A DNA stretch of 64,000 bases from Bryobacterales bacterium (GCA_965226215.1 CBDDCH010000002.1:2517228-2581227); one strand, 5' to 3'. Positions 9,389 to 58,313 are shown, counted from the stretch's first letter. Numbers and translations are program-made. The notes: generated by a model not told the origin, from the letters alone.

Positions 9389-9397
9389 GGTACCGCG

Positions 9398-12856: not shown

Positions 12857-12960
12857 GACCCATGCCTTCTTGCGAAGGCCAATATGCGCTGTTTAGCGCC
12901 TACCTTACCAGCTTGCTCCAAATTGGTTAGGTACCCTTACATAGTACTAAAATACTATGA

Positions 12961-13993
12961 AATGGGGTATCCACTTGACTCAGGTAACCCCAACATCTTG
13001 TGGTTGGGCTCACGGGGCCTCAGCGTCCCAGTCGGCGACGATCGATCGATACGGCGTTGGGTTCACGGCGACTGCCTGCTGCACAAGGCGGTAGAAGAGT
13101 TTTCCCCGGCTGCGTGAGTTGCGCCGGTTGAAGCGGAACACAAACTCGTCGAGGTAGTAGTCCAGATGCTCGTGGCTAACCGCGCCTTGGTGCGTGCCCA
13201 GCAGCCAGCGCTTGAGCAACGAGATCGCTTGGTGCACCCTCGGCAATAATTCCGAGGCCTGCTTGCGGCGGCCCGACAGAAAGACGATGCGATGCTGGTA
13301 GCCCTTCTTCTCCAGCGGCTCGTAGCCCAGCCAGCCGTCGGTGTGCACCACGCTTCCCGGCTCGACCGACTCCTCCACGAAGGGCATCAAACTGGCCGCC
13401 GATGCGTTCCGCACGCGCTGCATGCGGATCCGTCCTAGCCCGCGGCCTCTCTCTTCCGCGGCTACTGCAATCAAGGCTTTACGCTCGGTCTGCCGGCCGC
13501 TCACACCCTCTTCCTCAGCGCCCCAATAGGTCTCATCGACCTCGACTACGCCCGCCAATCGCTCCCGCCCCGGACGCACCATCGCTCGCCGCAGCTTGTG
13601 CATCCAGGTCCACGCGGTTTGATAGCTGCCCAACCCGAGAACGCGCTGCAGACCCAGCGCGCTGACCCCGTTCTTTTGCGAAGTGACGTGCCAGATCGCC
13701 CGGAACCACAGCCGCAGCGGCTTACGTGTGTCTTGGAAGATCGTGCCCGAGGTCACCGACGTCTGCCGCCCGCAGCGAGCGCATTCGAACCACACTTTGC
13801 GCACCGGCCAAGCCCGCTCATGCCCGCATCCCGGACAGCGGAAACCCTCCGGCCAGCGCAACGCGGACAGATAGTCGCGACAGGCCTCTTCGCTGGCGAA
13901 GCGTACCTCGAACTCGAGCAGGTCGCGTGGATAATCCTCCACGAAGGCGCATACTACATCTTGGGGTCACCTGAGTCAAGTGGATACCCCATT
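12961..13993 (-). mobile_element. IS1595-family insertion sequence (1033 bp) with an 8-bp target-site duplication
   Basis: The 33-bp terminal inverted repeats (AATGGGGTATCCACTTGACTCAGGTAACCCCAA versus the reverse complement of the right end) differ at one position. A direct repeat TACTATGA lies at 12953-12960 and 13994-14001. Confidence 0.9.
13010..13942 (-). CDS. IS1595-family (ISXO2-like) transposase
   Basis: It has an N-terminal zinc ribbon (CPGCGHERAW...FECARCGRQTS) and a DDE domain (VVEVDETYWG...VHTDGWLGY...). The 310-aa length is typical for the family. Confidence 0.9.
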   Translation of the reverse strand: MEDYPRDLLEFEVRFASEEACRDYLSALRWPEGFRCPGCGHERAWPVRKVWFECARCGRQTSVTSGTIFQDTRKPLRLWFRAIWHVTSQKNGVSALGLQRVLGLGSYQTAWTWMHKLRRAMVRPGRERLAGVVEVDETYWGAEEEGVSGRQTERKALIAVAAEERGRGLGRIRMQRVRNASAASLMPFVEESVEPGSVVHTDGWLGYEPLEKKGYQHRIVFLSGRRKQASELLPRVHQAISLLKRWLLGTHQGAVSHEHLDYYLDEFVFRFNRRNSRSRGKLFYRLVQQAVAVNPTPYRSIVADWDAEAP

Positions 13994-44780: not shown

Positions 44781-45010
44781 TCACCAGCAGCTCCGCCCGC
44801 CGTCGATGACGAGGTTGGTCCCGGTCATATAAGAAGAAGCGTCGGAAACCAAAAAAACGATGGCGGCTTTGTATTCGTCTTGGCCGGCCATCCGCCCAAG
44901 CGGAATCAACCCGCTCAGGCGCCGGATAAACGCAGGGTCTTGCCCTTGAAAGACGCCGCCCGGAGAAATGGCGTTGACCCTAACTCCACGCTCGGCCCAA
45001 TACGTGGCTA
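44781..45010 (-). pseudogene. SDR-family oxidoreductase, C-terminal part (gene split by IS630 copy 1)
   Basis: It reads ...ATYWAERGVRVNAISPGGVFQGQ...GRMAGQDEYKAAIVFLVSDASSYMTGTNLVIDGG. It joins 46164..46865 perfectly once the IS and one TA are removed (LGLTRYL|ATYWAE). Confidence 0.85.
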
Positions 45011-46163
45011 GTGTAGTGCCACTAACGGTTCTGGACAATGGCGTGGGTTTTGGCGGCGCGCTCGACTTTGGCGAGGATATCTTGTGCCGGAGCTGTCCAG
45101 ACAAAGGGCTTGGCCGCTTGGTTACTCGCTTCCAGGTACTCGTGGATGGCGGCCTCGAGTTCGGGAACACTGCGGAACACGCCGCGGCGGATGCGCTTCT
45201 GTGTCAGCTCGCGGAACCAGCGCTCGACGAGATTGAGCCAAGAAGAAGACGTGGGAATGAAGTGAAAGTGGAAGCGGGGGTGCTTCGCGAGCCACTTCTT
45301 CACCTGCTCATGCTTATGCGTGGAGTAGTTGTCCACGATCAGATGCAGCTCCAGCGCCGGTGGCGTTTCGCGATCGATCTTGCGTAGGAATTTGAGGAAT
45401 TCCTGGTACCGATGTCGCGGCAGACACTCCCCGATCACCTGGCCGTCGAGCACATTGAAGGCGGCGAACAGCGTCGTTGTGCCATGTCGTTTGAAGTCGT
45501 GGGTCATGGTGCCGGCGTGACCCTTTTTCAGGGGCAGTCCCGGCTGGCTGCGGTCTAAGGCCTGGATCTGGCTTTTCTCATCGACGCTGAGCACCAGCGC
45601 GTGCTCGGGCGGATTCAAGTACAGCCCGACCACGTCGCGGAGTTTCTCGACGAACTGCTTGTCGCGGCTGAGCTTGAAAGTTTCGAGGCGATGGGGCTGC
45701 AGTCCGTGCGCTTTCCAGACGCGCTGGATGGCCATCTTGGAGACGCCCAAGTGCTTGGCGAGGGTGCGGGTGCTCCAATGCGTGGCCGCCCGGGGCTTCT
45801 CGTGAAGCGTTGTATCGAGGATGCATTGGACGAATTCAGCGGAGAGCGCCGGTTTGCGTCCGGGGCGCGTCCGATCGCGGAGTCCGTCGAGGCCGGACTG
45901 GGCGAAGCGCTTTCGCCACAGGATGACGGTCTTGCGGTTGACGCCGAGTTCGCGGGCCATGGCGTGGTTCGCCAACCCCTGCGCACAGCGCAAAACAATG
46001 TGCGCTCGCAAGACCATTTTCTGCGTCGTATTGCGGCCTCGAACGAGGCGACGAAGAGCGTTTCGCTGCGGAGCGGTGAGGGCTAGAGCGTCAGCGGATG
46101 GCCACATAAACCATCCTACCGCGAAAAGGGTGTTATTGTACAGCTATTTATGTGGCACTACAC
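45011..46163 (-). mobile_element. IS630-family insertion sequence, copy 1 (1153 bp, intact transposase)
   Basis: It has 12-bp TIRs (GTGTAGTGCCAC / GTGGCACTACAC). It is flanked by TA at 45009-45010 and 46164-46165. Confidence 0.95.
45022..46107 (-). CDS. IS630-family transposase (HTH plus DDE domains), intact
   Basis: The 361-aa ORF reads MWPSADALALTAPQRNALRRLVRGRNT...GRKPALSAEF...[46 protein letters not shown]...[18 protein letters not shown]... Confidence 0.9.
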   Translation of the reverse strand: MWPSADALALTAPQRNALRRLVRGRNTTQKMVLRAHIVLRCAQGLANHAMARELGVNRKTVILWRKRFAQSGLDGLRDRTRPGRKPALSAEFVQCILDTTLHEKPRAATHWSTRTLAKHLGVSKMAIQRVWKAHGLQPHRLETFKLSRDKQFVEKLRDVVGLYLNPPEHALVLSVDEKSQIQALDRSQPGLPLKKGHAGTMTHDFKRHGTTTLFAAFNVLDGQVIGECLPRHRYQEFLKFLRKIDRETPPALELHLIVDNYSTHKHEQVKKWLAKHPRFHFHFIPTSSSWLNLVERWFRELTQKRIRRGVFRSVPELEAAIHEYLEASNQAAKPFVWTAPAQDILAKVERAAKTHAIVQNR

Positions 46164-46865
46164 TAGGTAGCGGGTTAGCCCGAGAAGTCCGGCCTTGGCG
46201 ACGCAATAGCTCACCGGTTTTACCGGCTGCGCGTGCTCCTCAAGACCGGCTTGCCGATAAATCCGCTGATCCGGTCCGAGAATGCCCATGTCGGAGGCGA
46301 TGTTCAAGATCACACCGTGGCCGCGACGGGCCATCTCGGCCCCGAAAACCTGACTGGCGAAGAACGCTCCGGTCAGGCTGACCTCGAGGTGGCGATGCCA
46401 CACCTCGGCGGGGAAGTTTTCCAGCCTACCCGAAGCACCGTTTGTCAGCCCGTTGGCGCCGACTTTCGGATCACAAGCGGCGTTGTTGATCAAGATGTCG
46501 ACTTTCCCGAAACGCTCGCGCGTCGCGGCAAGCGCCTCGACAAGCGAGTTGCGGTCGGTGACATCCCCGGCAACTCCCAACGTATCGGCGTTAAAAGCAG
46601 CCGCGGTCTCCTCGGCCCGGCGCCGGGCTTTCTCCGCGTCAAGATCGAGCAACACCGGGTGGCCGCCCAGCTCGGCAATCGCTTCGGCGTGCTTGACGCC
46701 CAACAGCCCCGCTCCACCCGTGATCACCGCTACCCGCCCGCTCAAGTCAAACGCGGCTTTGACCGAACGAGCGGCCTCCCGAGGGAACGGCGGCGGCCGC
46801 AGCGCTTCCGATGAATCAACCGGATCAACGATCCGCTCGGTCGTGTTGCTGGGATTCCCCGTCAT
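46164..46865 (-). pseudogene. SDR-family oxidoreductase, N-terminal part (gene split by IS630 copy 1)
   Basis: It starts MTGNPSNTTERIV... (ATG at 46865) and continues ...VAVITGGAGLLGVKHAEA...NNAA...YCVAKAGLLGLTRYL. It then runs into the IS end. Confidence 0.85.
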
Positions 46866-46953
46866 CCTAATTTGTCCTTGTTTATCCCGGCTTATCCCGC
46901 GGGAGCCGCCGCTTCCCGTTCGGGCTTGCCTTCGTATCGTGGACGAGACCATT

Positions 46954-47733
46954 TCAACAGAACGATCGCGTCTGTCCGCCATCGACCACCCAACAGGCGC
47001 CGGTTACAAACGAAGCTCTTTCCGAGGCCAAAAAAACCGCCGTGTCGGCGATCTCCCGCGGCGCGCCAAAGCGCTTAAGAGGGACCTCGCGTTGAATGTA
47101 GTCTTTGAAGAACTCCCGTCTCTCGGCCAGCTTTCTCTCCCACGAGCCGCCGGGAAACAGAACGTTCCCCGGCGCCACCGCGTTGACGCGGACACCGTGG
47201 GGCCCGGCCAGACGCGAGAGGCTTTTGACGGCTCTCTGCAGCGCGGCCTTCGCCGCGCTATAGGGAGCCGGCGCGCCGATCGCCTCCGAGCCGGCGATCG
47301 AAGAGACCATCACCAGGCTGCCGCGTTGCTCTTCCAGCATACGGGCGAGCGCTTCGGTGGCCAGCACCATGCCACCCAACAGATTCGCGTTCAACGCTGC
47401 CTGCCAGTCTTCGCGACTCAGCTGCCAACCGGCCGGCGCGGTTCCGTTTCCGACGTTCGCCACCACGATGTCCAATCTCCCGAAGGCGGCCGTCGTTCGC
47501 TCCAACGCCTCCTGGACGCCGCGCAGCTCGGTCATATCGCCCTGTACAGCCAGGACTCGCTGCTCGCCGGCCGGGGCTCCCAGTCCTCGAGCCGCCTCTT
47601 CGAGGCAGCACGGGTCACGACCGGTGACGACCACCCTGGCTCCTTCAGCCAGAAAAGCGCGTGCGATCGCCAGTCCGATACCGCGGCTCGATCCGGCGAT
47701 GAATGCGACGCTGTCGCGAAGGCCTAGATCCAT
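46954..47733 (-). CDS. SDR-family oxidoreductase
   Basis: The motifs are AFIAGSSRGIGLAIA, ...VANVG..., and YSAAKAALQ. The ORF has 259 aa. Confidence 0.85.
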   Translation of the reverse strand: MDLGLRDSVAFIAGSSRGIGLAIARAFLAEGARVVVTGRDPCCLEEAARGLGAPAGEQRVLAVQGDMTELRGVQEALERTTAAFGRLDIVVANVGNGTAPAGWQLSREDWQAALNANLLGGMVLATEALARMLEEQRGSLVMVSSIAGSEAIGAPAPYSAAKAALQRAVKSLSRLAGPHGVRVNAVAPGNVLFPGGSWERKLAERREFFKDYIQREVPLKRFGAPREIADTAVFLASERASFVTGACWVVDGGQTRSFC

Positions 47734-48623
47734 GGGCTTGCTTTTCGGCGGGGGGTCGCCGCGACGGTCGCCCGCGCGGCAGCCTGGAAGCGTTCCTCGA
47801 CGAAACGCCGGTTTCCGGCTGCCAAGTCGACTTCGCTCAGAATCTCATCACGCGCGGCTTGGAGAATGAAGGGCCCCGGGAAGCCGATCTCCGCCAACAG
47901 GCGAAAGCAGGCCCCAAAATCGGCGGCGCCGGTGTCCAGGGGAACGGTCCCGCCTCCCCTCAGACGGTCCTTGATATGGACGCTGCCGAGCCAAGGTCCC
48001 AACAGGGGCAGCTCTCGCTGCGGGTCATAGCCCAGCGAAGCGCTGTTCCCCGTGTCATAGTTGGCCCGCACCAACGTGTGGTCGGCCGCGGCGAGCAGCG
48101 CGGCGAACTCGTCGGGGGGCAGATCCGTCTCCAGGTGGATCTCAACTTCCGCCTGCTCGGCGACGGGGATGACTTCTTGGAGTACGGCCAACAGCCCCTC
48201 GACTTCTCTAGCGGATCGAAGGGACGAAGAATCGACAAAGGGCAACACGACATGTCGGGCGCCGAGGCGGCCAACCCGTGTCAATAGCCATCGAAGGTGC
48301 TCGACCACAGGACCCTGTGGAAATCCGTCATCTCCAACGAGGCGCTCGTTCATGTAGTAGTCGGCGCAGACCGACCCCACGGTGACGCCGGAACCCTTGG
48401 CCAGCGCCTGCACTTCCTCGATGCCGTGATCGCTTCCCAGCGGGTTGAAAGCCGCGGTCTCGGCCTCGTAGATCCACTCGATCGAGGCCAGCTCCGCCTT
48501 CTGAGCCCGAGAAAACTCTTTGCGCCATGATCGTTTCGGAAACGACTGAATGCGGCCGTCCTCGGGCAGGGACAGTCGGCCTTGCATGATGCCGATCTCG
48601 GGGAGCGTCAGCGCATCACTCAT
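47724..48623 (-). CDS. sugar phosphate isomerase/epimerase (xylose-isomerase-like TIM barrel)
   Basis: The 299-aa ORF has the pattern ...IEWIYE...VCADYYM...HVVLPFVD...IHLETD...ANYDTGNSASLGY...VHIKDR..., typical of AP_endonuc_2 / hexulose-type TIM barrels. Confidence 0.7.
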   Translation of the reverse strand: MSDALTLPEIGIMQGRLSLPEDGRIQSFPKRSWRKEFSRAQKAELASIEWIYEAETAAFNPLGSDHGIEEVQALAKGSGVTVGSVCADYYMNERLVGDDGFPQGPVVEHLRWLLTRVGRLGARHVVLPFVDSSSLRSAREVEGLLAVLQEVIPVAEQAEVEIHLETDLPPDEFAALLAAADHTLVRANYDTGNSASLGYDPQRELPLLGPWLGSVHIKDRLRGGGTVPLDTGAADFGACFRLLAEIGFPGPFILQAARDEILSEVDLAAGNRRFVEERFQAAARATVAATPRRKASPWI

Positions 48624-49189
48624 TGGCGAGCCTCCCGTGGAAGGTCGTCGCCCGAACCGTTGGCAGATTGGCCGCCGCCGCTCCGCTGAGCCTCGACAAC
48701 ATAGAAGGTTCTGACTACGCTATCGACCCATTGGGGCGCACTGTCGGTGTAGCGATCGCGGACGACGCGGGTCTGGAATCCGCGGCTTTCGAGATACCCC
48801 AGCACGGTCGGGAAGCTGTAGCGGTTGTTGAATTTGAGGTGCGTCGTCCGGTATTCGGCGACCGGCGAGGGGATGCTGTGAATCTGTTCGCTCTCGCCGA
48901 GAAACGTGCGCAGCAGGAGGGTCTTCCGAGCACCGTCGGCGAGGTGCTTGAGGGCCGGCATGAGACTGGGCAGATGCTCCAACATGGCGCTTGCGATGAC
49001 GATGTCGGCCGTTTTCGGTGGAGGAGCCTCCACAATGTCGTGCTCGATGAACTCGACGCCGTCCGCGCCGGCAAACCACTGGCGAGCGATCTCGAGGTAG
49101 GCCGGTTCAAACTCAACTCCGGTGTAGGAGATTCCAAACGCCTCAAAAGCTCGACAGGCATAGCCGGTCGCGCAGCCGACATCGAGCAA
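48620..49189 (-). CDS. class I SAM-dependent methyltransferase (start codon unclear)
   Basis: It contains LLDVGCATGYACRAFEAFGISYTGVEFEP...IVIASAMLEHLP... The track start is a TTG placed right at motif I. The frame is open for 43 more codons upstream (EISFTEITGSAYTELLEKRLAGEAPELTWLGQFRDILRPQLRQGVS) without an ATG or GTG. Confidence 0.65.
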   Translation of the reverse strand: MLDVGCATGYACRAFEAFGISYTGVEFEPAYLEIARQWFAGADGVEFIEHDIVEAPPPKTADIVIASAMLEHLPSLMPALKHLADGARKTLLLRTFLGESEQIHSIPSPVAEYRTTHLKFNNRYSFPTVLGYLESRGFQTRVVRDRYTDSAPQWVDSVVRTFYVVEAQRSGGGQSANGSGDDLPREARQ

Positions 49190-49463
49190 GCTGACCCCCT
49201 GCCGAAGCTGAGGCCGCAGGATGTCTCGAAACTGCCCCAGCCAAGTCAGCTCGGGCGCCTCTCCCGCGAGCCGTTTCTCTAATAGCTCGGTGTAGGCCGA
49301 GCCGGTGATTTCGGTGAAACTAATTTCTTAGACGGTTGCCCGCGTCTTAGATCGTTGCCGGCTCAAAGAGTCGCCCTCTCGCGATGGGGAAACGCGTGCC
49401 TCTTCGAGAAGGTCGGCTGCCTTCCGGAAACCCCCGAACAGGCGTCGGCCCGCGCCCCCCCCC

Positions 49464-49919
49464 TCAGCTTGCCGCCGATGCGGGTCTGCCCGTCACTTCA
49501 ACCAGCTCCACCGGCGTGCCGTCGGGGTCTTTGCAGAACGTCACTTTCGCGTAGCCGTCTAGAGACTCTTGCGGCGCGGCGTGGAAGGGCACGCCCGCCG
49601 CGGCCAACCGGCGCCGAACCTCCTCCAGGTCGTCGACCGTAAAGGCGACGTGCGAGGGGCCGATGGCGTAGATCTCGCGCTCGAGACCCCGGCGGCAACG
49701 GTGCGAGTCGAATTCGAGCAGCTCGACCAGCGCCGCCTCGCCTTCGCTCGCCATCTTGACCGTCTTCACACGAACATTGTCGAGCGCCAGCATGTTGTCG
49801 ATGTAGTCGCCCGACTCGTTCATCGATCGCACCACGCTTAAACCCAACAGGTCGCGATAAAACCGCAGCGACCGCTCCATGTCGCCGACGACAATGCCGA
49901 AGTGGCGGATTCGGGTCAC
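49464..49919 (-). CDS. VOC-family (glyoxalase/bleomycin-resistance/dioxygenase fold) protein
   Basis: Only the last 151 residues of the 378-aa track ORF look real (VTRIRHFGIVVGDMERSLRFYRDLLGL...GPSHVAFTVDDLEEVRRRL...DPDGTPVELVE). The GTG start at 49919 overlaps the upstream TGA as GTGA. Confidence 0.75.
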   Translation of the reverse strand: MTRIRHFGIVVGDMERSLRFYRDLLGLSVVRSMNESGDYIDNMLALDNVRVKTVKMASEGEAALVELLEFDSHRCRRGLEREIYAIGPSHVAFTVDDLEEVRRRLAAAGVPFHAAPQESLDGYAKVTFCKDPDGTPVELVEVTGRPASAAS

Positions 49920-51307
49920 GAGCCCGCCCCCGAACCGACGACGGCCTCGATCGACTCTTCGAGAACCTGAAGGCCTTCTTCCAAAGCTTCCTCGGTGATC
50001 ACCAGCGGCGGCGCCAGCTTGATCGACTCCCGTCCGGTGTGGACGACGAGCAAGCCGCGGCGCATGGCTTCTTCTGAAATCTAGGTCGCCGACTCCGCCC
50101 CCGAACGGCCCGGGGCGTCTCCCAGGTGGAGGGCGGCCACGAGTCCCTTCCCGAATACGTAACTGATATGCGCCGGAAACCGCTCCCGAATGTCCTCCAA
50201 CCGCTGCTGGAGCCGTTCGCCCAACACAGCCGCGTTTTCGATCAGACCGTCCTCGAGAAGCGCCTTCAGGTTCGCCAGACCAGCGGCGCATGCCAAGGGA
50301 TTGGCCGAATGCGTCGAGCTCATCGAGCCGACCTCGGGCAGGTCCATCACCTCCCGGCTGCCGAGAACCACAGACAGCGGAAAGCCCGAGGAGACCCCTT
50401 TGCCGCAACAGAGCAGATCTGCTCCCACGCCGTAGTGCATGTAGCCGAAAAGCTTGCCCGTCCTGCCGAAGCCCGACTGCATTTCGTCGAAGGCAACCAG
50501 CATGTCGTGGCGGTCGGCAAACTCCCGGACGGCGCGGACAAACCGCTCCGGATAAAACAACGCCCCCCAGCCTTGGAAAGTCTCGAGCATGAAACCACAC
50601 AGGTCCCGGCCGGGGTCGAGTCGCTTCTCCTCGACGAGAGCCGCCATCGATCGCTCGAAATAGCTTTCCGGATCGAGCAGGGCCTCGACCCGCCAGGGAT
50701 AGGGGAAGGGCAGGTGATGAATGTTCGGGTCGCTGTAGCCGATCCAGTTCTTTTGCCCGGGATGGAAGCTCATCATCTGGGCGCCCAGGGTCCGCCCGTG
50801 CCAGTTGCCTTCAAAAGTAATGACGCCCCCACGCCGCTTGCCGGCCTCTTGACCTTGCATGCGCATCAGCTTCAGGGCGCACTCGGTCGCTTCCGTGCCC
50901 GCCGACAGCAGAAAGGCCTTCTCGAAGCCCGCCGGCGTGACCTCGATCAGATAGCGCAGGTAGTCCGCCCGGATTTTCGTCGCGTAGTTATAGGAGTGAA
51001 GCAGGGGCTTGGCCAACTGCTCGCCGACGGCTTGGACGACGCGAGGGTTGGCGTGCCCGGCGTTGGCGACGAAGATGGTCGACGTGAAGTCGATCCAGGT
51101 GTTGCCCCACGCGTCATGAACTTGAAAACCCTCGGCGCGGTCCCAGACGACGGGCAGCTGCCCGTGCATGGCCCTGGACTCGTAGCGCGCCAGATCGTCC
51201 AAGATGGGCTGGGCCTGGGGAACGGGAATCGGAGTCCGAATCCGCCGAAACTTCGTTTCGATCCCAGTAGGGGCGGTTTTGGCGAGTGATGAAGATGTTG
51301 TAGCCAT
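49916..51307 (-). pseudogene. class-III (PLP, fold-type I) aminotransferase with an in-frame TAG
   Basis: ...AGTEATECALKLMR...FDEMQSGFGRTGKLF...CCGKGVSSGFPLS...STHSANPLACAA... is class III. The ORF stops at a TAG at 50081-50083. The same frame continues with ISEEAMRRGLLVVHTGRESIKLAPPLVITEEALEEGLQVLEESIEAV, the canonical C-terminal strand-helix of the family, up to a TGA at 49916. Confidence 0.8.
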
Positions 51308-51552
51308 ATTGTTCTCTTTCCCGGCGCGTGCTTTGCCGGCGTGGAATCCCCCGGAAGCGTCCGAGTAATTGTGAAAGGGTCTGCCCAGTAGACCGTCTCG
51401 GACAAGACTTTATGATCGTCCTGGCGCCGTGGCGGAAGGTGTGGGCTGGGATGTGGCGCACGCATTCTTTCGTGCTGTGTCGCCATTCGTGGCGACATGT
51501 CCCTGGGGTGAACCCCTCCGCTGAGACAATCGGCGGTAGCGACACTCGCCGT

Positions 51553-52626
51553 TCAATGGTTTTTCCTTCTCCCCATAGCCTCTTCTGTTCTAGCATGGTC
51601 CTCGGCGGGTGAAGCGGAGGCGGGCTCTGGTGGAGACCAACCCGCCGAGGAATAGCCGGCCGGAGACTCATCGAAACGATGGTTCGGGGAGCCGGCTGCG
51701 GTCGGCTTCTCGTTCAGCAACCCCTTCCCATCGGATCGATAGATCTCCTGCTGCCTAAAAAAACTCATCGTCGCTCCGGCGCAAGCCGCCTTCGTCCCGG
51801 CGGCCCGCTCGAACTCCTCGGGGGGCCGATAGCCCAGCGCCGAATGCAGACGGCAGCGGTTGTAGTAGCGCTCGATGAAGTCCTCGATGTTCGCGCGCAG
51901 GTGGTCGAGATCCTGATAATCGTTGGCGTAGATCTCCTCCCGCTTGAGCGTCTTGATGAAGCTCTCACAACTGGCATTGTCGTAGGGGTTCGCCGGCCGA
52001 CTCATGCTGGGGATCGCTTGCTGGCGGCGCAAGCTCCTCACGTAGGCGCCGGAAGCGTACTGCACACCGCGATCGGAGTGATGGACCAGGCCGGGCGGCG
52101 GTTGCCGTTCGGCCATCGCCTGCTCCAGTGCCGCCAGCGGCAAGCGGGCGGCCAGCGTTCTCTCCAGCGCCCAGCCCACCACCTTCCGCGAGTAGGCGTC
52201 CAAGACCACGGCCAGATAAACGAACTCGGCCTTCAGCCGGATGTGGGTGATGTCGGCCACCCACAGCTGATTGATCCCGGTCAGCTTGATGCGGGCGGCT
52301 AGGTTGAGGTAAACCTCCAGCGGATGATCGGCCTCCGTGGTGGCCACGAACGCCCGGGGTTGGACCCCGAGCAACCCGTCCTGGCGCATGATCCGCGCCA
52401 CGCGCTTGTGGTTCACCACCATCCCCCGCCGGCGGAGTTCCGCCGCGACCCTGCGGTAGCCATAGCGTCGCCGATGTTCGAGGGCAACCTCCTGGATCGC
52501 CGACCGCACTTCCATGTCTTCTTCCAGCGGCATCTGCTCTTTGAATGACCGATAGAAACCAGCCCGGCTCACTGGGGCCAGCCGGCACATCCGCTCGACA
52601 CTCAGTCTGCCTTGCAGCGGCATCAA
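51553..52626 (-). CDS. IS3-family transposase OrfB (DDE integrase core)
   Basis: ...NQLWVADITHIRL...YLAVVLDAYSRKVVGWAL...VHHSDRGVQYAS...PYDNASCESFIKTLKREE... is the rve/DDE domain. The frame is open upstream to about 52730, consistent with an OrfAB fusion. Confidence 0.9.
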   Translation of the reverse strand: MMPLQGRLSVERMCRLAPVSRAGFYRSFKEQMPLEEDMEVRSAIQEVALEHRRRYGYRRVAAELRRRGMVVNHKRVARIMRQDGLLGVQPRAFVATTEADHPLEVYLNLAARIKLTGINQLWVADITHIRLKAEFVYLAVVLDAYSRKVVGWALERTLAARLPLAALEQAMAERQPPPGLVHHSDRGVQYASGAYVRSLRRQQAIPSMSRPANPYDNASCESFIKTLKREEIYANDYQDLDHLRANIEDFIERYYNRCRLHSALGYRPPEEFERAAGTKAACAGATMSFFRQQEIYRSDGKGLLNEKPTAAGSPNHRFDESPAGYSSAGWSPPEPASASPAEDHARTEEAMGRRKNH

Positions 52627-52970
52627 CTCCCGGATTTGGTCGTAGACGCCTTCTCGCCACAGCTGCCGCTGCCGTGGCGTCGAGCCTCGATTTTTTCGAA
52701 GGCGCCTTTGAAAAAATCCACTTCCAGCGTCTTATCCCCCAACAGACGCTGCAACGCGCGGATCTCCTGGCGCAGTTCCCGCTCGCGGGAGGCGACCGGC
52801 GGACCGGGCCCCTCCTCCGTCGGCTCCATCCGATTTCGCCACCTGTACAGCAGCCCTCGGTGAATCCCCAGCTCCTTCGACAGCGCTGTCACGCTCTGGC
52901 AGCTTTTCAGCCGCTCCAGTGCCATCTTCCGGTATTCTTCGGGAAACTTGTAAACTCGTCTCTTGCCCAC
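52623..52970 (-). CDS. IS3-family transposase OrfA (HTH)
   Basis: The 115-aa ORF reads ...EEYRKMALERLKSCQSVTALSKELGIHRGLLYRWR..., followed by a leucine-zipper-like region. A candidate -1 slippery heptamer T TTT TTC lies in the orfA frame at 52710-52716 (minus strand). An A6 run lies 12 nt downstream. Confidence 0.85.
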   Translation of the reverse strand: MGKRRVYKFPEEYRKMALERLKSCQSVTALSKELGIHRGLLYRWRNRMEPTEEGPGPPVASRERELRQEIRALQRLLGDKTLEVDFFKGAFEKIEARRHGSGSCGEKASTTKSGS

Positions 52971-53201
52971 TCGCAGTTCCTTTCCCGGCTAAAGTGTCGC
53001 TATCACGACTGTCTCATTTTGGGGGTTCACTCCATCTCGTTGGTGCGCTGGCCCTTCTGCCGGCCGATGGGATGCCGGCAAGAATGGCAACACAATGCCG
53101 GCAAGAATGCCGGCACAGCACGCTGACAGCGTGCGCCACGTCGCTTTCGAGCCCGACATTTCCGAATCCATAGTCAACTCGTCTCGACGACAGTCCGGCT
53201 A

Positions 53202-54354
53202 GTGTAGTGCCACTAACGGTTCTGGACAATGGCGTGGGTTTTGGCGGCGCGCTCGACTTTGGCGAGGATATCTTGTGCCGGAGCTGTCCAGACAAAGGGC
53301 TTGGCCGCTTGGTTGCTCGCTTCCAGGTACTCGTGGATGGCGGCCTCGAGTTCGGGAACACTGCGGAACACGCCGCGGCGGATGCGCTTCTGTGTCAGCT
53401 CGCGGAACCAGCGCTCGACGAGATTGAGCCAAGAAGAAGACGTGGGAATGAAGTGAAAGTGGAAGCGGGGGTGCTTCGCGAGCCACTTCTTCACCTGCTC
53501 ATGCTTATGCGTGGAGTAGTTGTCCACGATCAGATGCAGCTCCAGCGCCGGTGGCGTTTCGCGATCGATCTTGCGTAGGAATTTGAGGAATTCCTGGTGC
53601 CGATGTCGCGGCAGACACTCCCCGATCACCTGGCCGTCGAGCACATTGAAGGCGGCGAACAGCGTCGTTGTGCCATGTCGTTTGAAGTCGTGGGTCATGG
53701 TGCCGGCGCGACCCTTTTTCAGGGGCAGTCCCGGCTAGCTGCGGTCTAAGGCCTGGATCTGGCTTTTCTCATCGACGCTGAGCACCAGCGCGTGCTCGGG
53801 CGGATTCAAGTACAGCCCGACCACGTCGCGGAGTTTCTCGACGAACTGCTTGTCGCGGCTGAGCTTGAAAGTTTCGAGGCGATGGGGCTGCAGTCCGTGC
53901 GCTTTCCAGACGCGCTGGATGGCCATCTTGGAGACGCCCAAGTGCTTGGCGAGGGTGCGGGTGCTCCAATGCGTGGCCGCCCGGGGCTTCTCGTGAAGCG
54001 TTGTATCGAGGATGCATTGGACGAATTCAGCGGAGAGCGCCGGTTTGCGTCCGGGGCGCGTCCGATCGCGGAGTCCGTCGAGGCCGGACTGGGCGAAGCG
54101 CTTTCGCCACAGGATGACGGTCTTGCGGTTGACGCCGAGTTCGCGGGCCATGGCGTGGTTCGCCAACCCCTGCGCACAGCGCAAAACAATGTGCGCTCGC
54201 AAGACCATTTTCTGCGTCGTATTGCGGCCTCGAACGAGGCGACGAAGAGCGTTTCGCTGCGGAGCGGTGAGGGCTAGAGCGTCAGCGGATGGCCACATAA
54301 ACCATCCTATCGCGAAAAGGGTGTTATTGTACAGCTATTTATGTGGCACTACAC
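53202..54354 (-). mobile_element. IS630-family insertion sequence, copy 2 (1153 bp, amber-interrupted transposase)
   Basis: It has the same TIRs as copy 1 and is flanked by TA at 53200-53201 and 54355-54356. It sits exactly at the stop codon of the cytidylyltransferase gene. Confidence 0.95.
53213..54298 (-). pseudogene. IS630 transposase split by a TAG (HTH part 53735..54298, DDE part 53213..53698)
   Basis: It reads ...[20 protein letters not shown]..., where copy 1 has ...[15 protein letters not shown]... The TAG is at 53735-53737, against CAG in copy 1. Confidence 0.9.
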
Positions 54355-55238
54355 TAGGAAGCCGACTCCGCCACCAGCGGCTGGGGGAGGTTTTCGGCTA
54401 GACACGCCTCTAAGGGGTTGTCGTCTCGCTGTATTCGATACTCCAGGTAGTCGAAGTCCTCCTCGGTATCGACCTCGACGCTAAACGGCGTCAGGAAGCC
54501 AAGAATCCGCGGGCCGTGGACGATGTTGGTGCGGCGAACAAAGTCGGTCTTGACGACGTCGACATAGCCGTTCGGATGATAGGCGGGCGGAAAGGCCTGA
54601 CGCGGCAGATTGTGGTAATCGGGTCGCGGGTCGTCGGGGAAAAGGCCGGTCAGAAAACCGTCCTCGACACGGAACATCTTCTCCGGCGGCTCGGCGACCT
54701 GGTGCGCGGAACGCAGCGACGTGGCTTCGTCGCGGCCTGCTATCAGATCAATGGCGGAATCGATGAGTGCGCCCTCCCTCAGCGGAGTGGTGGGCCGCAA
54801 GTGAACGAGCATGGCAGGCTCGGCGTGGTCGTGTTGTTGAAACCAATCGAGCGCGTGGCGGATGAAATCCATGTCGGCCGAGGTGTCCTGGGCTAGCTCG
54901 GGCGGTCGCAGAAAAGGCGCCTCCGCCCCGTAGGCTCGCGCGATGTCGGCGATCTCCGGGCTGTCGGTGGATACGATCACGCGATCGATGTTATGGCACC
55001 GGCGGGCGACCACAATCGAGTAGGCGATCAGAGGATGCCCTCCAACCAGCCGGATATTCTTCCTCGGCACTCCTTTTGAGCCGCCCCGGGCGGGTATGAT
55101 GGCGTAGACCTTTTCACGTTTCAAGAACGAATCCTCCGTCGATTTTGGGGCGCTGACCCGATGGCTCATGGCGCGGCGAGCCACGCAAGCCGCTCCTCGG
55201 ACGGCCACGGAACGCTTCTTCCACTTGTCGGCGTTCAC
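54354..55238 (-). CDS. acylneuraminate (nonulosonate) cytidylyltransferase-family protein (NeuA/CMP-sugar synthetase-like)
   Basis: ...VYAIIPARGGSKGVPRKNIRLVGGHPLIAYSI...IVSTDS...LRPTTPLR... are motifs of the CMP-NeuAc/CMP-Kdo synthetase fold. The start may instead be M24 (55169). The native TAG stop coincides with the IS630 target TA. Confidence 0.8.
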   Translation of the reverse strand: MNADKWKKRSVAVRGAACVARRAMSHRVSAPKSTEDSFLKREKVYAIIPARGGSKGVPRKNIRLVGGHPLIAYSIVVARRCHNIDRVIVSTDSPEIADIARAYGAEAPFLRPPELAQDTSADMDFIRHALDWFQQHDHAEPAMLVHLRPTTPLREGALIDSAIDLIAGRDEATSLRSAHQVAEPPEKMFRVEDGFLTGLFPDDPRPDYHNLPRQAFPPAYHPNGYVDVVKTDFVRRTNIVHGPRILGFLTPFSVEVDTEEDFDYLEYRIQRDDNPLEACLAENLPQPLVAESAS

Positions 55239-55267
55239 CGCCTTGCCGTCGATGTCAAAACAGGAAG

Positions 55268-56203
55268 TCAGGGCAGCTTCCCGGCCGTGGCAAGGGCGAC
55301 CTCGGCGGACGATTCCAGATAGTAGCGGAGCTTGTGGGCATTCGCCTCTTCCGCCGTCGTGATCCGCTTGACTCCGTCCCCGAGCACCACCGGAATCGAT
55401 CGGATGTAGGCCACCGTCAACTCCAGGCCCCGCTTTTCGAGCGACGCCGCTTGATCGCTGCCGTACATCGCTCGGTCGAGCGTGATGTGGCGCTCGACGG
55501 CCACCGCGCCCATCATGGCCGCTAGAACTCCGGGGATCATGGTCGGTTCATGTCCGCTGTATCCCACCGGGCACGGGTAGCGCCGGCGGAGTTCTTCGAT
55601 CAAGCGGAGGTTCAGCGTCGCCTCCGGAGCCGGATACTCGCCGACACAGTGCATCAGCACAAGCGGACAGCCTCTGGCTCGAAAGATGTCCACGGCTCGA
55701 TCAATGGCCTCGTAGGTGCTCATCGCCGTCGAAATAAAGGTCACCTTTTGCTCCTCGGCCACCGTCTCGAGCAGCTCTCGGTGCCCGATCATGGCCGAAG
55801 CGATCTTGTTGTAGCTCAGCTCGTACTGCCGCAGGAACTCTTGGCTCCCGACGTCCCAGGCCGAGGCAAACCACTCGATGCCGACCTGGCGGCAATAAGC
55901 GTCGATTTCGTCATATTCGTCCTTGCCGAATTCCAACGCTTGTTTTTGGTCGCGCTGCGTCGTCCCCCAAGGGCTTTCGCGCGGCGAGTCGAGAAGCGCG
56001 GCGGGGTAGACGACGTCAATTGTCCTTTTTTGAAACTTGACCGCGTCGCAGTCGGCCTGTTTGGCCATATCAATCAATCGCTTGGCGAGGTCGACATCGC
56101 CGTTGTGATTGATGCCGATCTCCGCGATGACAAACACTGGTTTCGCAATCGGCCACGGCGGCCCCTGCCTCAGATCGTCTCTATCGCGGAAGTTCTCGAT
56201 CAT
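55268..56203 (-). CDS. neuB: N-acetylneuraminate (nonulosonate) synthase-family protein, NeuB TIM-barrel domain only
   Basis: ...PVFVIAEIGINHNGDVDLAKRLIDMAKQADCDAVKFQKR...YNKIASAMI...VLMHCVGEYPAP...NLRLIEELRRRYPCPVGYSGHE...AVAVERHITLDRA..DQAASLE... The ORF has 311 aa and ends shortly after the barrel, so I see no SAF/antifreeze-like C-terminal domain. An RBS GGGAG precedes the ATG. Confidence 0.85.
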   Translation of the reverse strand: MIENFRDRDDLRQGPPWPIAKPVFVIAEIGINHNGDVDLAKRLIDMAKQADCDAVKFQKRTIDVVYPAALLDSPRESPWGTTQRDQKQALEFGKDEYDEIDAYCRQVGIEWFASAWDVGSQEFLRQYELSYNKIASAMIGHRELLETVAEEQKVTFISTAMSTYEAIDRAVDIFRARGCPLVLMHCVGEYPAPEATLNLRLIEELRRRYPCPVGYSGHEPTMIPGVLAAMMGAVAVERHITLDRAMYGSDQAASLEKRGLELTVAYIRSIPVVLGDGVKRITTAEEANAHKLRYYLESSAEVALATAGKLP

Positions 56204-56247
56204 GTTGTAATCTCCCTTAAAAGTCGAGTTGACCCTCTATCTGCCTA

Positions 56248-57400
56248 GTGTAGTGCCACATAAATAGCTGTACAATAACACCCTTTTCGCGATAGGATGG
56301 TTTATGTGGCCATCCGCTGACGCTCTAGCCCTCACCGCTCCGCAGCGAAACGCTCTTCGTCGCCTCGTTCGAGGCCGCAATACGACGCAGAAAATGGTCT
56401 TGCGAGCGCACATTGTTTTGCGCTGTGCGCAGGGGTTGGCGAACCACGCCATGGCCCGCGAACTCGGCGTCAACCGCAAGACCGTCATCCTGTGGCGAAA
56501 GCGCTTCGCCCAGTCCGGCCTCGACGGACTCCGCGATCGGACGCGCCCCGGACGCAAACCGGCGCTCTCCGCTGAATTCGTCCAATGCATCCTCGATACA
56601 ACGCTTCACGAGAAGCCCCGGGCGGCCACGCATTGGAGCACCCGCACCATCGCCAAGCACTTGGGCGTCTCCAAGATGGCCATCCAGCGCGTCTGGAAAG
56701 CGCACGGACTGCAGCCCCATCGCCTCGAAACTTTCAAGCTCAGCCGCGACAAGCAGTTCGTCGAGAAACTCCGCGACGTGGTCGGGCTGTACTTGAATCC
56801 GCCCGAGCACGCGCTGGTGCTCAGCGTCGATGAGAAAAGCCAGATCCAGGCCTTAGACCGCAGCTAGCCGGGACTGCCCCTGAAAAAGGGTCGCGCCGGC
56901 ACCATGACCCACGACTTCAAACGACATGGCACAACGACGCTGTTCGCCGCCTTCAATGTGCTCGACGGCCAGGTGATCGGGGAGTGTCTGCCGCGACATC
57001 GGCACCAGGAATTCCTCAAATTCCTACGCAAGATCGATCGCGAAACGCCACCGGCGCTGGAGCTGCATCTGATCGTGGACAACTACTCCACGCATAAGCA
57101 TGAGCAGGTGAAGAAGTGGCTCGCGAAGCACCCCCGCTTCCACTTTCACTTCATTCCCACGTCTTCTTCTTGGCTCAATCTCGTCGAGCGCTGGTTCCGC
57201 GAGCTGACACAGAAGCGCATCCGCCGCGGCGTGTTCCGCAGTGTTCCCGAACTCGAGGCCGCCATCCACGAGTACCTGGAAGCGAGCAACCAAGCGGCCA
57301 AGCCCTTTGTCTGGACAGCTCCGGCACAAGATATCCTCGCCAAAGTCGAGCGCGCCGCCAAAACCCACGCCATTGTCCAGAACCGTTAGTGGCACTACGC
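56248..57400 (+). mobile_element. IS630-family insertion sequence, copy 3 (1153 bp, amber-interrupted transposase, inverted relative to copy 2)
   Basis: The left TIR is GTGTAGTGCCAC. The right TIR is GTGGCACTACGC, with one mismatch. It is flanked by TA at 56246-56247 and 57401-57402. Confidence 0.95.
56304..57389 (+). pseudogene. IS630 transposase split by the same TAG as copy 2
   Basis: The TAG is at 56865-56867. It shares the R (versus H) and H (versus Y) substitutions of copy 2, and it has one private L->I change (STRTIAKHLG). Confidence 0.9.
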
Positions 57401-58313
57401 TAGGATGGGCGACCGCCCAGAGAGTGTCCGAGCGTCCGGCGCGGATCAGGGCCTCGGCATAACTGGCATCTACAGCGTCAGGCAAGGTGGAGTCGTAAAA
57501 CCCCTGTCCGCCGGGTTCGCCGGTGAGCATCCAGCGGATGTGATTACTTAGGTCGTAGCGCTGCACGCCGCGGATCTCGGCCCCAAAACCGGAGCGATCG
57601 AGCGTGCGCTTGAGCGTGTCTGATGAAAAGTACAGAAGATGCGCTTTTTGGTAGTAGAAGCGCTGGCAGGCGGGAATCTGATAGAGGCTCACCAGCGCGT
57701 CGTCCAGGTTCGGGACCTCGATGACGACCTTGGCCCCAGCTCGAAGCGACTTCGGCAGCGATCGCAGGAAAGCCAGTGGATCAGGCAGGTGTTCCAATAC
57801 GTGAAACATCACCACAAGATCAAAGGTGGCTTGCTGTTGTCGGAGGGCGCCCAGTTCGCTCACGACGGACAGCCCGAGCCGCCCTTCGATCCAGGTTCTC
57901 GACTCGCGGTCAGGTTCCACGCCTTGGAGCTGCTCCACGTAGGGGCGAACCGCATCCAGGAACGCTCCCGAGCCGCAACCGATCTCGAGCACCCGGACAT
58001 CGGGGGCCAGCAGCGCACGCAGACGCTCGACCCGTCTCCGAGCCTCCGGTAGGTCCTCCAGGTAGCGCTTCTCGACAGGGAGCTCTCCATAGTCTTCGCG
58101 GTAGCTGGTTTCGTAGTAGCGGGCGAGGTCATCGGCAGGGGGCCTGGGCCACAAAAACACCAACCCGCAGGCGCCGCAACGTCTCACTTCAGCTTCGGGA
58201 GCATGCCGGGCGCCTTTTTGCACCAACGCGCTCTCGGACGATCCACAGATCGGGCAGTCCGGCAGTCGATCTTCGAGCGCACCCGCCTGTGCTTGTTCTG
58301 TCACGGCTTCCAC
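57401..58313 (-). pseudogene. class I SAM-dependent methyltransferase with an N-terminal zinc ribbon; the last about 10 codons are replaced by the IS630 copy 3 insertion
   Basis: It carries CPICGS...CGACG, then VLEIGCGSGAFLD...DLVVMFHVLEHLPDP. The track ORF (57024..58313) continues 126 codons into the antisense strand of the IS. Removing the IS and one TA restores ...LWAVAHPRQIEGQLDF*. Confidence 0.8.

What the first reader, a model, noticed from the sequence alone, without database searches (positions are those of the whole stretch)
53202..57400. Nonulosonic-acid genes (neuB plus cytidylyltransferase) bracketed by two inverted near-identical IS630 copies: a potential invertible or excisable cassette
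Two 1153-bp IS630 copies (53202-54354 minus, 56248-57400 plus) face each other across exactly two genes, the NeuB-family synthase and the CMP-sugar synthetase. Each copy is flanked by TA.

Deleting copy 3 plus one TA restores the upstream methyltransferase C-terminus (...AVAHPRQIEGQLDF, TAA). This stop lies 13 nt before the neuB ATG, with a GGGAG RBS between them. Deleting copy 2 leaves the native TAG of the cytidylyltransferase. Both copies are therefore simple insertions into a pre-existing MT-neuB-neuA operon.

The outcome is a 1.9-kb segment between 1.15-kb inverted repeats. That is an ideal substrate for RecA-mediated inversion, which would turn neuB/neuA antisense to the operon. This would act as an ON/OFF switch for sialic-acid-like decoration.

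Copy 1 (45011-46163) has the same orientation as copy 2. Recombination between these two would delete the 7-kb aminotransferase/VOC/SDR module.
Basis: partly seen in the sequence, partly recalled or inferred. Interest (0 to 1): 0.7.

Follow-up and report, generated by a model that had tools for sequence, protein, structure and literature searches.

The report
IS630 copies chopping a sugar operon
Three copies of one jumping gene (an IS630-family insertion sequence) have landed in a surface-polysaccharide gene cluster of a soil Acidobacterium, and two of them face each other across two sugar-activation genes; the layout is real, but it looks like ordinary damage to a decaying gene cluster, not a purpose-built genetic switch.

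Summary
There are three 1153-bp IS630-family copies at 45011-46163 (-), 53202-54354 (-) and 56248-57400 (+). Each sits in a CTAG site with TA duplicated. The last two are inverted around a NeuB-family gene and a CTP_transf_3 cytidylyltransferase gene.

Four metagenome contigs, 99.2-99.9% identical, carry the empty site wherever they reach one of the three positions. With the ISs removed in silico, the window aligns colinearly with one of them over 17.6 kb.

The ON/OFF inversion switch has no support and is unlikely as a function:
- Copies 2 and 3 share a private nonsense mutation in the transposase.
- The cassette has the same orientation as the empty-site alleles.
- Both private SNPs of copy 3 are still in copy 3.
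- neuB/neuA are only the first two genes of a seven-gene NeuB-to-SDR operon (plus interspersed genes) that is colinear across phyla. In this strain it also carries an IS3 element, an IS630-split SDR, two nonsense mutations and a lost start codon.

Best reading: IS-driven erosion of a dispensable glycan locus in a Bryobacterales strain. RecA-mediated inversion or deletion is physically possible, but it is a generic by-product. Low novelty.

The parts
56248..57400 (+). IS630-family copy 3 (1153 bp). The transposase ORF 56304-57389 is broken by an in-frame TAG at 56865-56867 (Q188*). Private changes at IS position 402 (L115I) and position 1152 (second-last base of the outer terminal repeat). TA at 56246-56247 and 57401-57402. 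Inserted in the CCT-AGG codons (P-R) that begin 10 codons before the stop of the methyltransferase gene.
   Evidence: empty site in L001-L004
53202..54354 (-). IS630-family copy 2 (1153 bp). The transposase ORF 53213-54298 is broken by the same TAG (53735-53737). TA at 53200-53201 and 54355-54356. It is inserted in the CTAG that contains the TAG stop of the cytidylyltransferase gene.
   Evidence: empty site in L002, L003 and L004 (L001 has an unrelated IS4-like insertion about 55 bp upstream)
45011..46163 (-). IS630-family copy 1 (1153 bp). Intact 361-aa transposase ORF 45022-46107 with D176, D259 and E295. TA at 45009-45010 and 46164-46165. It splits the 309-aa SDR gene: N-terminal part 46164-46865, C-terminal part 44781-45010.
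   Evidence: empty site in L002/L003
55268..56203 (-). NeuB-family synthase, 311 aa, no SAF domain. The protein is identical in L001-L004.
   Evidence: Pfam PF03102 207.7 bits. NCBIfam NeuB_NnaB 220 bits against a cut-off of 399.65, PseI 162 against 340. Best PDB relative 6ncs, 290 aa. Exact-protein look-up.
54354..55184 (-). CTP_transf_3 cytidylyltransferase, 276 aa by the gene call in L002-L004. Two window-private amino-acid changes (S13P, Y276S).
57401..58313 (-). Class-I SAM methyltransferase, first 304 codons. The ORF now runs on into copy 3 to 57024 (429-aa fusion). The displaced last 9 codons plus TAA lie at 56217-56245, followed by the 13-nt GGGAG spacer before the neuB ATG.
51553..52970 (-). 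IS3-family element between the cytidylyltransferase and aminotransferase genes (orfA 52623-52970, orfB 51553-52626; element ends not mapped). It is shared with L001-L003, so it is older than the IS630 insertions.
46164..51307 (-). Rest of the conserved module. Class-III aminotransferase (from 51307; E409* at 50081-50083, against 463 aa in relatives). VOC/glyoxalase (49464-49919). Methyltransferase with its start codon lost (ATG to ATT at 49322). Xylose-isomerase-like TIM barrel (47724-48623). SDR (46954-47733). N-terminal part of the split SDR.

Best explanation
The window is a chromosomal piece of an uncultured Bryobacterales (Acidobacteriota) strain. About 30 kb of it is a Wzx/Wzy-type exopolysaccharide locus, all on the minus strand.

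What the element is. It is a classical IS630-family insertion sequence of 1153 bp. It has 12-bp perfect terminal repeats, a DDE transposase, a CTAG target and a TA duplication. It has inserted three times in this locus.

Relationship of the copies. Copies 2 and 3 are sisters. They share a private nonsense mutation (Q188*) that removes two of the three catalytic residues. So one was copied from the other over 1.9 kb using transposase supplied in trans (for example by copy 1), or the two were homogenised by gene conversion.

Nature of the arrangement. The inverted arrangement around neuB/neuA is an accidental 'pseudo-composite' structure made in situ. It is not an imported transposon and not an evolved switch.

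Likely consequence (inferred). The three IS630 copies and an older IS3 element cut the cluster into four pieces. That cluster is built around a core operon, NeuB-cytidylyltransferase-aminotransferase-VOC-TIM barrel-SDR-SDR, that is colinear across phyla; here it is preceded and interrupted by methyltransferase genes. Copy 3 ends translation of the methyltransferase inside the IS, about 820 nt upstream of neuB, so translational coupling is lost and polarity is likely. Copy 1 destroys the last SDR.

Added damage. The same strain carries window-private nonsense mutations in the aminotransferase and the Wzx-like gene and a lost start codon in a methyltransferase. Together this means the glycan pathway is being lost or is under relaxed selection in this strain.

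Recombination. Homologous recombination between copies 2 and 3 (inversion) or copies 1 and 2 (8.2-kb deletion) can be expected at some low rate, as for any repeated IS. It would be a further step of erosion, not regulation.

Shown: the anatomy, the empty sites, the shared nonsense mutation, the private inactivating mutations and the conserved operon. Inferred: polarity, loss of function and the route by which copies 2 and 3 became sisters.
For: - Exact boundaries and TA/CTAG flanks for 3/3 copies in the window and 8/8 including copies in L005 and L085-L088.
- NCBIfam IS630 transposase equivalog: 285 bits against a cut-off of 100.
- Empty sites wherever L001-L004 reach one of the three positions, and a colinear alignment of the IS-less reconstruction with L003 (17,580 bp, 99.755%, one 2-nt gap).
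- The Q188* mutation (IS position 618 C>T) occurs only in copies 2 and 3 among 8 copies compared.
- The order NeuB-(X)-CTPtr-AT3-VOC-TIM-SDR-SDR is kept in Bryobacterales, Riflebacteria, Alphaproteobacteria, Desulfovibrionaceae and Methanoregula.
- Window-private changes: 21 substitutions in 17.6 kb. In host genes they split 14 non-synonymous to 4 synonymous. They include Wzx-like W413*, aminotransferase E409* and methyltransferase M1I, polarised with L001-L004 and outgroup L006.
- The same locus is an IS and deletion hot spot in relatives. L001 has an extra IS4-like element. L006 has two copies of another IS between NeuB and the cytidylyltransferase. L005 has a 9.5-kb deletion of the module and a 96.9%-identical IS630 copy 860 bp away.
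- At least 6 IS copies of 4 families lie in the 64-kb window.
Against: - No expression data, so polarity and loss of function are inferred.
- NeuB is 100% identical to the relatives, and both insertions that bracket it spare the neuB and neuA reading frames. Copy 2 even preserves the stop codon. Three further CTAG sites inside the cassette (54398, 54893, 55522) were not hit. This could hint at selection to keep the two genes, but with 5 candidate sites the chance of this pattern is about 1 in 10.
- The private substitutions have an unusual 10:11 transition:transversion ratio. The window's reads are not available, so some 'inactivating' substitutions could be assembly errors.
- Low-frequency inversion in the population cannot be excluded.
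Confidence: 0.8

Rival explanations
1. The two inverted IS630 copies act as a RecA-dependent invertible cassette. It flips neuB/neuA between sense (ON) and antisense (OFF) and so gives phase-variable surface glycan decoration.
For: - The two arms are 1153 bp and 99.8% identical, in inverted orientation, 1893 bp apart. That is a good substrate for homologous recombination.
- The sharing of a private nonsense mutation by the two copies could reflect gene conversion between them, that is, actual recombination.
- Both insertions spare the neuB and neuA coding sequences.
- There is a precedent for IS-mediated, RecA-dependent phase variation in Burkholderia thailandensis (PMC9946442).
Against: - The window and all four related contigs have the same cassette orientation.
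- Both private SNPs of copy 3 (positions 402 and 1152) are still in copy 3. So no odd number of crossovers has fallen in the 750 bp between them since they arose.
- The partner genes of the conserved operon are already broken in this strain, so the switch would have little to switch.
- neuB/neuA are already separated from the upstream operon by 1.15 kb of IS in the antisense orientation.
- No promoter-like site was found at the IS ends.
- The insertions are absent from every close relative found, so the structure is not conserved.
Confidence: 0.07
2. The 4199-bp unit 53202-57400 is a composite (compound) transposon of the Tn10/Tn5 type. It carries, or can carry, neuB-neuA as cargo.
For: - Two IS copies in inverted orientation flank the cargo, and the whole unit is flanked by TA.
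- An IS630-associated composite transposon that inserts at TA in CTAG has been made experimentally. I know this only from the title of Tenzen & Ohtsubo 1991, listed in the references of PMC2170065.
- An intact transposase is available in trans from copy 1.
Against: - The cargo is in its ancestral place. MT-neuB-neuA is contiguous in the empty-site alleles, and the methyltransferase reading frame is restored across copy 3. So the unit did not arrive as a transposon.
- Both flanking transposase genes carry Q188*.
- The outer terminal repeat of copy 3 has a private mutation at its second-last base.
- No second copy of the unit was found in any collection.
Confidence: 0.05
3. The arrangement is an assembly artefact: a repeat-induced misjoin, or a chimera of co-existing strains in a metagenome assembly.
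For: - The window's own proteins (MT-IS fusion, 361-aa transposase, private-allele cytidylyltransferase) are not on record elsewhere.
- All close relatives lack the insertions.
- The transition:transversion ratio of the private substitutions is odd.
Against: - Each copy has its own private SNPs, exact 1153-bp boundaries and a correct TA duplication at a CTAG site. The flanks match the empty sites base for base. A misassembly would not create target-site duplications.
Confidence: 0.03

Closest known systems
IS630 of Shigella sonnei and ISY100 of Synechocystis (IS630/Tc1/mariner family)
   Same: - About 1.15 kb with a single DDE transposase that has N-terminal HTH domains.
- Short terminal inverted repeats.
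- Insertion at TA with TA duplication, here always inside CTAG. That is the preference named in the titles of Tenzen et al. 1990/1991, cited in PMC2170065.
- NCBIfam IS630 equivalog 285 bits.
   Different: - It is a new element from Bryobacterales. No ISfinder comparison was possible.
- Two of the three copies are non-autonomous (Q188*).
Composite transposons with inverted IS arms (Tn10/IS10, Tn5/IS50)
   Same: Two copies of one IS in inverted orientation flank a short cargo segment. The central segment of such structures can invert by homologous recombination between the arms (own knowledge).
   Different: Here the cargo is native to the site and the arms arrived separately. Both arm transposases are broken. 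There is no sign that the unit ever moved.
IS-mediated variation of surface polysaccharides: IS1301 in siaA of Neisseria meningitidis, and ISAba13 in itrA of Acinetobacter baumannii
   Same: An IS sits in a capsule, sialic-acid or polysaccharide locus and alters surface glycan expression. IS elements are common in such loci (PMC9038732).
   Different: Those cases work by insertion and precise excision of a single IS, and reversion was shown experimentally. Here nothing reversible has been observed, and several non-IS inactivating mutations accompany the insertions.
IS2-like, RecA-dependent bet-hedging duplication in Burkholderia thailandensis (PMC9946442)
   Same: IS copies serve only as homology for RecA, and the transposase is not needed.
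   Different: That system uses direct repeats and the duplication and resolution of 208.6 kb. Mixed genotypes and phenotypes were demonstrated. Here the repeats are inverted, the segment is 1.9 kb, and there are no population data.

Membership tests
IS630 family insertion sequence | Transposase of the IS630/DDE_3 type | tested here: met
   NF033545 transpos_IS630: 285 bits against a cut-off of 100. Pfam DDE_3 plus HTH_23/29/32. D176, D259 and E295 are present in copy 1 by inspection.
IS630 family insertion sequence | TA target-site duplication, with CTAG preference for IS630 proper | tested here: met
   C-TA-[IS]-TA-G at 3/3 window copies and 8/8 copies overall. Empty sites carry a single CTAG.
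IS630 family insertion sequence | Terminal inverted repeats and a size of about 1.1-1.2 kb | tested here: met
   1153 bp. The ends are GTGTAGTGCCAC / GTGGCACTACAC, 12 bp perfect and then partly matching.
IS630 family insertion sequence | Autonomous cut-and-paste activity | not testable with these tools
   The copy 1 ORF is intact. Copies 2 and 3 carry Q188* and cannot be autonomous.
Composite (compound) transposon | The unit transposed as a whole: cargo foreign to the site, duplication flanking the whole unit only | tested here: not met
   The cargo is syntenic and contiguous with its flanks in L001-L004. Each IS has its own TA duplication.
Composite (compound) transposon | At least one arm supplies a working transposase | tested here: not met
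   Both arms carry the Q188* nonsense mutation.
Programmed DNA-inversion switch (fimS/hin/Bacteroides invertible-promoter type) | Dedicated site-specific recombinase gene next to short inverted repeats that flank a promoter or gene segment | tested here: not met
   No serine or tyrosine recombinase was found among the ORFs of the locus scanned with Pfam. The inverted repeats are whole IS copies.
Programmed DNA-inversion switch / IS-mediated RecA-dependent phase variation | Both arrangements coexist in a population | not testable with these tools
   Only the ancestral orientation was seen, in the window plus 4 related contigs. No other contig of the window's lineage is on record. Inner IS-cargo junctions do not change on inversion, so reads spanning 1.15 kb are needed.
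Nonulosonic-acid (sialic, pseudaminic or legionaminic acid) synthase NeuB/PseI/LegI | NeuB catalytic (TIM-barrel) domain | tested here: met
   PF03102: 207.7 bits against a cut-off of 22.1, full profile 1-241.
Nonulosonic-acid (sialic, pseudaminic or legionaminic acid) synthase NeuB/PseI/LegI | Reaches the equivalog score of a characterised subfamily, and has the C-terminal SAF domain | tested here: not met
   NeuB_NnaB 220.3 against 399.65. PseI 162.4 against 340.25. The match ends at profile position 278/329. The protein is 311 aa with no SAF hit. The closest solved structure is the short 290-aa 6ncs.
Nonulosonic-acid (sialic, pseudaminic or legionaminic acid) synthase NeuB/PseI/LegI | Canonical precursor genes nearby (NeuC, or PseB/C/H/G, or LegB/C/H/G) | tested here: not met
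   None was found among the ORFs of the window scanned with Pfam or NCBIfam. The conserved partners are instead a class-III aminotransferase, a VOC protein, a xylose-isomerase-like TIM barrel and two SDRs.
CMP-nonulosonate synthetase (NeuA/PseF) | CTP_transf_3 domain, and equivalog score | tested here: inconclusive
   The Pfam domain is met (74.3 bits against 22.6). The PseF equivalog is not reached (129.1 against 205.7).

The most novel reading that the evidence does not exclude
The most novel reading not excluded is this. The inverted IS630 pair does flip at a measurable rate in the natural population. Together with deletion between copies 1 and 2, this would generate standing heterogeneity in an unusual CMP-activated ulosonic-acid decoration of an uncultured soil Acidobacterium. 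It would be an IS-borne, RecA-dependent phase-variation device made from two defective IS copies.
Probability: 0.06. Interest if true: 0.45.

Novelty: new member of a known kind. Interest (0 to 1): 0.2.

Why it matters
As it stands, the finding is a clean, well-documented example of something familiar. IS elements accumulate in a bacterial surface-polysaccharide locus and break it up, and the empty-site alleles survive in the same natural population.

Its value is mainly descriptive:
- It defines a new CTAG-specific IS630-family element in Bryobacterales.
- It shows strain-level IS polymorphism in soil Acidobacteria from metagenome assemblies.
- It shows two sister, non-autonomous copies 1.9 kb apart, which points to a local hop in trans or to gene conversion.

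If inversion were shown to occur and to matter, it would add a second example of IS-homology-driven phase variation, after B. thailandensis. The accompanying pseudogenes make this unlikely.

The more interesting lead is a side observation. The short, SAF-less NeuB belongs to a seven-gene operon (NeuB, cytidylyltransferase, class-III aminotransferase, VOC, TIM barrel, two SDRs) that is conserved from Acidobacteria to methanogenic archaea. I could not find a description of its product.

Tried and rejected
1. Other contigs of the window's own lineage. I searched by exact protein for the MT-IS fusion, the 361-aa transposase, the 187-aa transposase fragment and the private-allele cytidylyltransferase. 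None is on record. The 161-aa fragment found only unrelated insertion sites.

2. Close relatives in other collections. JGI metagenome contigs have none closer than 75% NeuB identity. GTDB species representatives have none closer than 92%. No further alleles were available to test orientation.

3. A short-junction search for an inverted allele. I rejected this before running it. Recombination inside the IS leaves both IS-cargo junctions unchanged, so only sequence that spans the whole 1.15-kb IS is informative.

4. Promoter and terminator scan of 52.9-58.5 kb. It found nothing above shuffled expectation and nothing at the IS ends. By eye, a weak outward TTGTAC-17-TACACT match (8/12) exists at the inner IS end. 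It is not evidence.

5. A housekeeping-gene control for the excess of non-synonymous private substitutions. It failed. The WecG look-up gave only a 3.7-kb contig and the IS1595 transposase gave none. Relaxed selection therefore cannot be formally separated from assembly error.

6. A literature search for the NeuB/TIM/SDR/aminotransferase module. It found no description.

7. Tenzen & Ohtsubo 1991 could not be read. Only its title, from a reference list, is used.

Full report
**1. Observation**

The repeat finder reports inverted arms 53199-54361 / 56241-57403 (1163 nt) and a direct repeat between 45006 and 53197. Base-by-base comparison places three 1153-bp copies at 45011-46163 (-), 53202-54354 (-) and 56248-57400 (+). 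Each is bounded by GTGTAGTGCCAC...GTGGCACTACAC and flanked by TA within C-TA-G.

Copies 2 and 3 differ at two positions (IS positions 402 and 1152). Copy 1 differs from copy 2 at five positions.

**2. The element**

The 361-aa ORF of copy 1 matches the NCBIfam IS630 transposase equivalog (285 bits, cut-off 100). It also matches Pfam DDE_3 plus HTH domains. D176, D259 and E295 are present.

Five further copies, 96.9-99.7% identical, occur in related contigs: L005, L087, L088, and L085/L086, where an IS21 has landed inside the element. All sit in CTAG with TA on both sides, so 8 of 8 sites fit. This is the classical behaviour of IS630. TA duplication and cut-and-paste transposition were shown for ISY100 in PMC2170065. 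The CTAG preference is named in the Tenzen et al. titles cited there.

In copies 2 and 3 a C>T change at IS position 618 turns Q188 into TAG. This lies after the first catalytic Asp and before the other two catalytic residues. None of the other six copies has this mutation. Copies 2 and 3 are therefore sister, non-autonomous copies. Two routes could explain this:
- a local hop over 1.9 kb, driven by transposase supplied in trans;
- gene conversion between the two copies.

Copy 3 also has a private change in the second-last base of its outer terminal repeat.

**3. Simple insertions, proven by empty sites**

An exact-protein look-up of the NeuB-family protein returned four ENA metagenome contigs (L001-L004). 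In them a 313-aa methyltransferase, NeuB and a 276-279-aa cytidylyltransferase are contiguous, with no IS630.

BLAST of these contigs against the window breaks exactly at the IS ends, with a 4-5-nt overlap at the single CTAG. I removed each IS plus one TA in silico. The window then aligns with L003 in one piece: 17,580 bp, 99.755% identity, one 2-nt gap.

- The methyltransferase C-terminus is ...AVAHPRQIEGQLDF.
- Its TAA lies 13 nt before the neuB ATG, with GGGAG between them.
- The TAG stop of the cytidylyltransferase is part of the CTAG target of copy 2 and is preserved.
- Copy 1 splits a 309-aa SDR gene.

The cassette in the window has the same orientation as in the empty-site alleles.

**4. 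What the bracketed genes are**

The organism is a Bryobacterales (Acidobacteriota) bacterium. The best species-representative genomes have 91-92% NeuB identity.

The 311-aa protein has a full Pfam NeuB domain but no SAF domain. It scores well below the NCBIfam cut-offs for NeuB_NnaB and PseI. The cytidylyltransferase is PseF-like but below that cut-off. The closest solved structure is a short 290-aa NeuB-family protein, 6ncs.

No NeuC, PseB/C/H/G or LegB/C/H/G genes were found among the ORFs of the window that I scanned.

Homologues of this short NeuB in 160 loci from many phyla co-occur with five other gene types:
- the cytidylyltransferase;
- a class-III aminotransferase;
- a VOC protein;
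- a xylose-isomerase-like TIM barrel;
- two SDRs.

The order NeuB-(X)-CTPtr-AT3-VOC-TIM-SDR-SDR is colinear in Bryobacterales, Riflebacteria, Alphaproteobacteria, Desulfovibrionaceae and Methanoregula. neuB/neuA are therefore the first two genes of a conserved seven-gene operon (plus interspersed genes) whose product is unknown. 'Sialic-acid-like' is only a family-level label.

**5. State of the locus in this strain**

In the window this operon is cut by IS630 copy 3, copy 2, an older IS3 element shared with L001-L003, and copy 1.

I polarised the differences with L001-L004 and outgroup L006. The window has 21 private substitutions in 17.6 kb. In host genes, 14 are non-synonymous and 4 synonymous. 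They include:
- W413* in the Wzx-like gene (59929);
- E409* in the aminotransferase (50083);
- ATG>ATT at the start of a methyltransferase (49322).

An N:S ratio near the neutral expectation, plus three inactivating point mutations and three IS insertions, all private to this strain, indicates erosion of the locus. There is a caveat: I could not obtain a housekeeping-gene control, so assembly error cannot be excluded.

Relatives show the same instability:
- L001 has an extra IS4-like insertion after the cytidylyltransferase.
- L006 has two copies of another IS between NeuB and the cytidylyltransferase.
- L005 has lost 9.5 kb, from mid-cytidylyltransferase to the next glycosyltransferase, and has an IS630 copy 860 bp away.

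The 64-kb window itself carries at least six IS copies of four families.

**6. The switch hypothesis**

Recombination between 1.15-kb, 99.8%-identical inverted repeats is physically expected at a low rate. IS homology can drive RecA-dependent phase variation, as shown in B. thailandensis (PMC9946442).

Here, however, several points count against a switch:
- No alternative arrangement is on record, and the window's lineage is not represented elsewhere.
- The orientation is ancestral.
- Both private SNPs of copy 3 are still in cis, so no odd crossover has fallen in the 750 bp between them.
- The insertions are not conserved in any relative.
- No recombinase or promoter feature accompanies them.
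- The downstream partner genes are already broken, so flipping neuB/neuA would have little to regulate.

The composite-transposon reading fails as well. The cargo is native to the site and both arm transposases are dead. An assembly artefact is unlikely because each copy has its own SNPs and a correct target duplication.

**7. Verdict**

The finding is a new member of a known kind: an IS630-family element forming an in-situ pseudo-composite structure in a decaying polysaccharide locus. Interest is low (0.2).

Known analogues for IS effects on surface glycans are IS1301/siaA and ISAba13/itrA (PMC9038732). The decisive test is long-read mapping across 44.5-58.5 kb.

Noticed in passing
window 46164-56203; loci L013, L014, L019, L023, L046 and others: The short, SAF-less NeuB belongs to a colinear operon, NeuB-(X)-cytidylyltransferase-class III aminotransferase-VOC-xylose-isomerase-like TIM barrel-SDR-SDR. 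The operon is conserved from Acidobacteria to Riflebacteria, Proteobacteria and Methanoregula (archaea). It has none of the canonical Neu/Pse/Leg precursor genes. I found no description of its product. It may make an undescribed CMP-activated ulosonic acid.
   Followed up: partly
window 59929, 50083, 49322 (and 18 more private substitutions between 43119 and 63788): Window-private nonsense mutations in the Wzx-like flippase gene and the aminotransferase, and a lost start codon in a methyltransferase. N:S among the private changes is 14:4, and transitions:transversions are 10:11, with many G>T and C>A changes. This indicates relaxed selection, a mutator signature or assembly error. These could not be separated.
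   Followed up: partly
window 53735-53737 and 56865-56867: Copies 2 and 3 share a private TAG (Q188*) that is absent from copy 1 and from five other copies in the population. This implies trans-mobilisation of a dead copy over 1.9 kb, or gene conversion between the inverted copies.
   Followed up: yes
window 54358: A window-private substitution (TAC>TCC, Y276S, the last codon of the cytidylyltransferase) lies immediately next to the CTAG target of copy 2. It may be chance, or a trace of an earlier event at the site.
   Followed up: no
L085 1785-5497 and L086 1784-5497: In two other contigs the same IS630 element is itself split by an IS21-family element (Mu-transposase_C_2 plus IstB), at slightly different positions (IS position about 610 against about 599). 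These are nested IS insertions in the same population.
   Followed up: no
L006 11892-16029; L005 11385-13399; L001 11901-13232: The same locus in relatives carries other mobile-element damage. L006 has two direct copies of a 389-aa-transposase IS around a 355-aa gene, between NeuB and the cytidylyltransferase. L005 has a clean 9.5-kb deletion of the module with an IS630 copy 860 bp away. L001 has an IS4-like insertion.
   Followed up: partly
window 12959-13993 versus L001-L003 301-1335: A 1035-bp IS1595-family element (transposase 13010-13942) is 99.6-99.8% identical to a copy that sits just upstream of the Wzz/tyrosine-kinase gene of the EPS locus in L001-L003. In the window it lies about 50 kb away. 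The window ends before the corresponding EPS position, so presence there could not be checked.
   Followed up: no
window 9394-9519 versus L001-L003 8880-9004: A segment of about 125 nt in the GT4-methyltransferase intergenic region of the EPS locus has an 87%-identical inverted copy at window 9394-9519, within the 3' end of the RmuC ORF (8012-9421) and the short spacer before the GGDEF/EAL gene (9566-12856). It may be a small dispersed repeat or a MITE-like element.
   Followed up: no
window 1779-3053: An IS256-family (Transposase_mut) gene of 424 aa. Together with IS1595, IS3 and IS630 x3, it gives at least six IS copies in 64 kb, so this genome is IS-rich.
   Followed up: no
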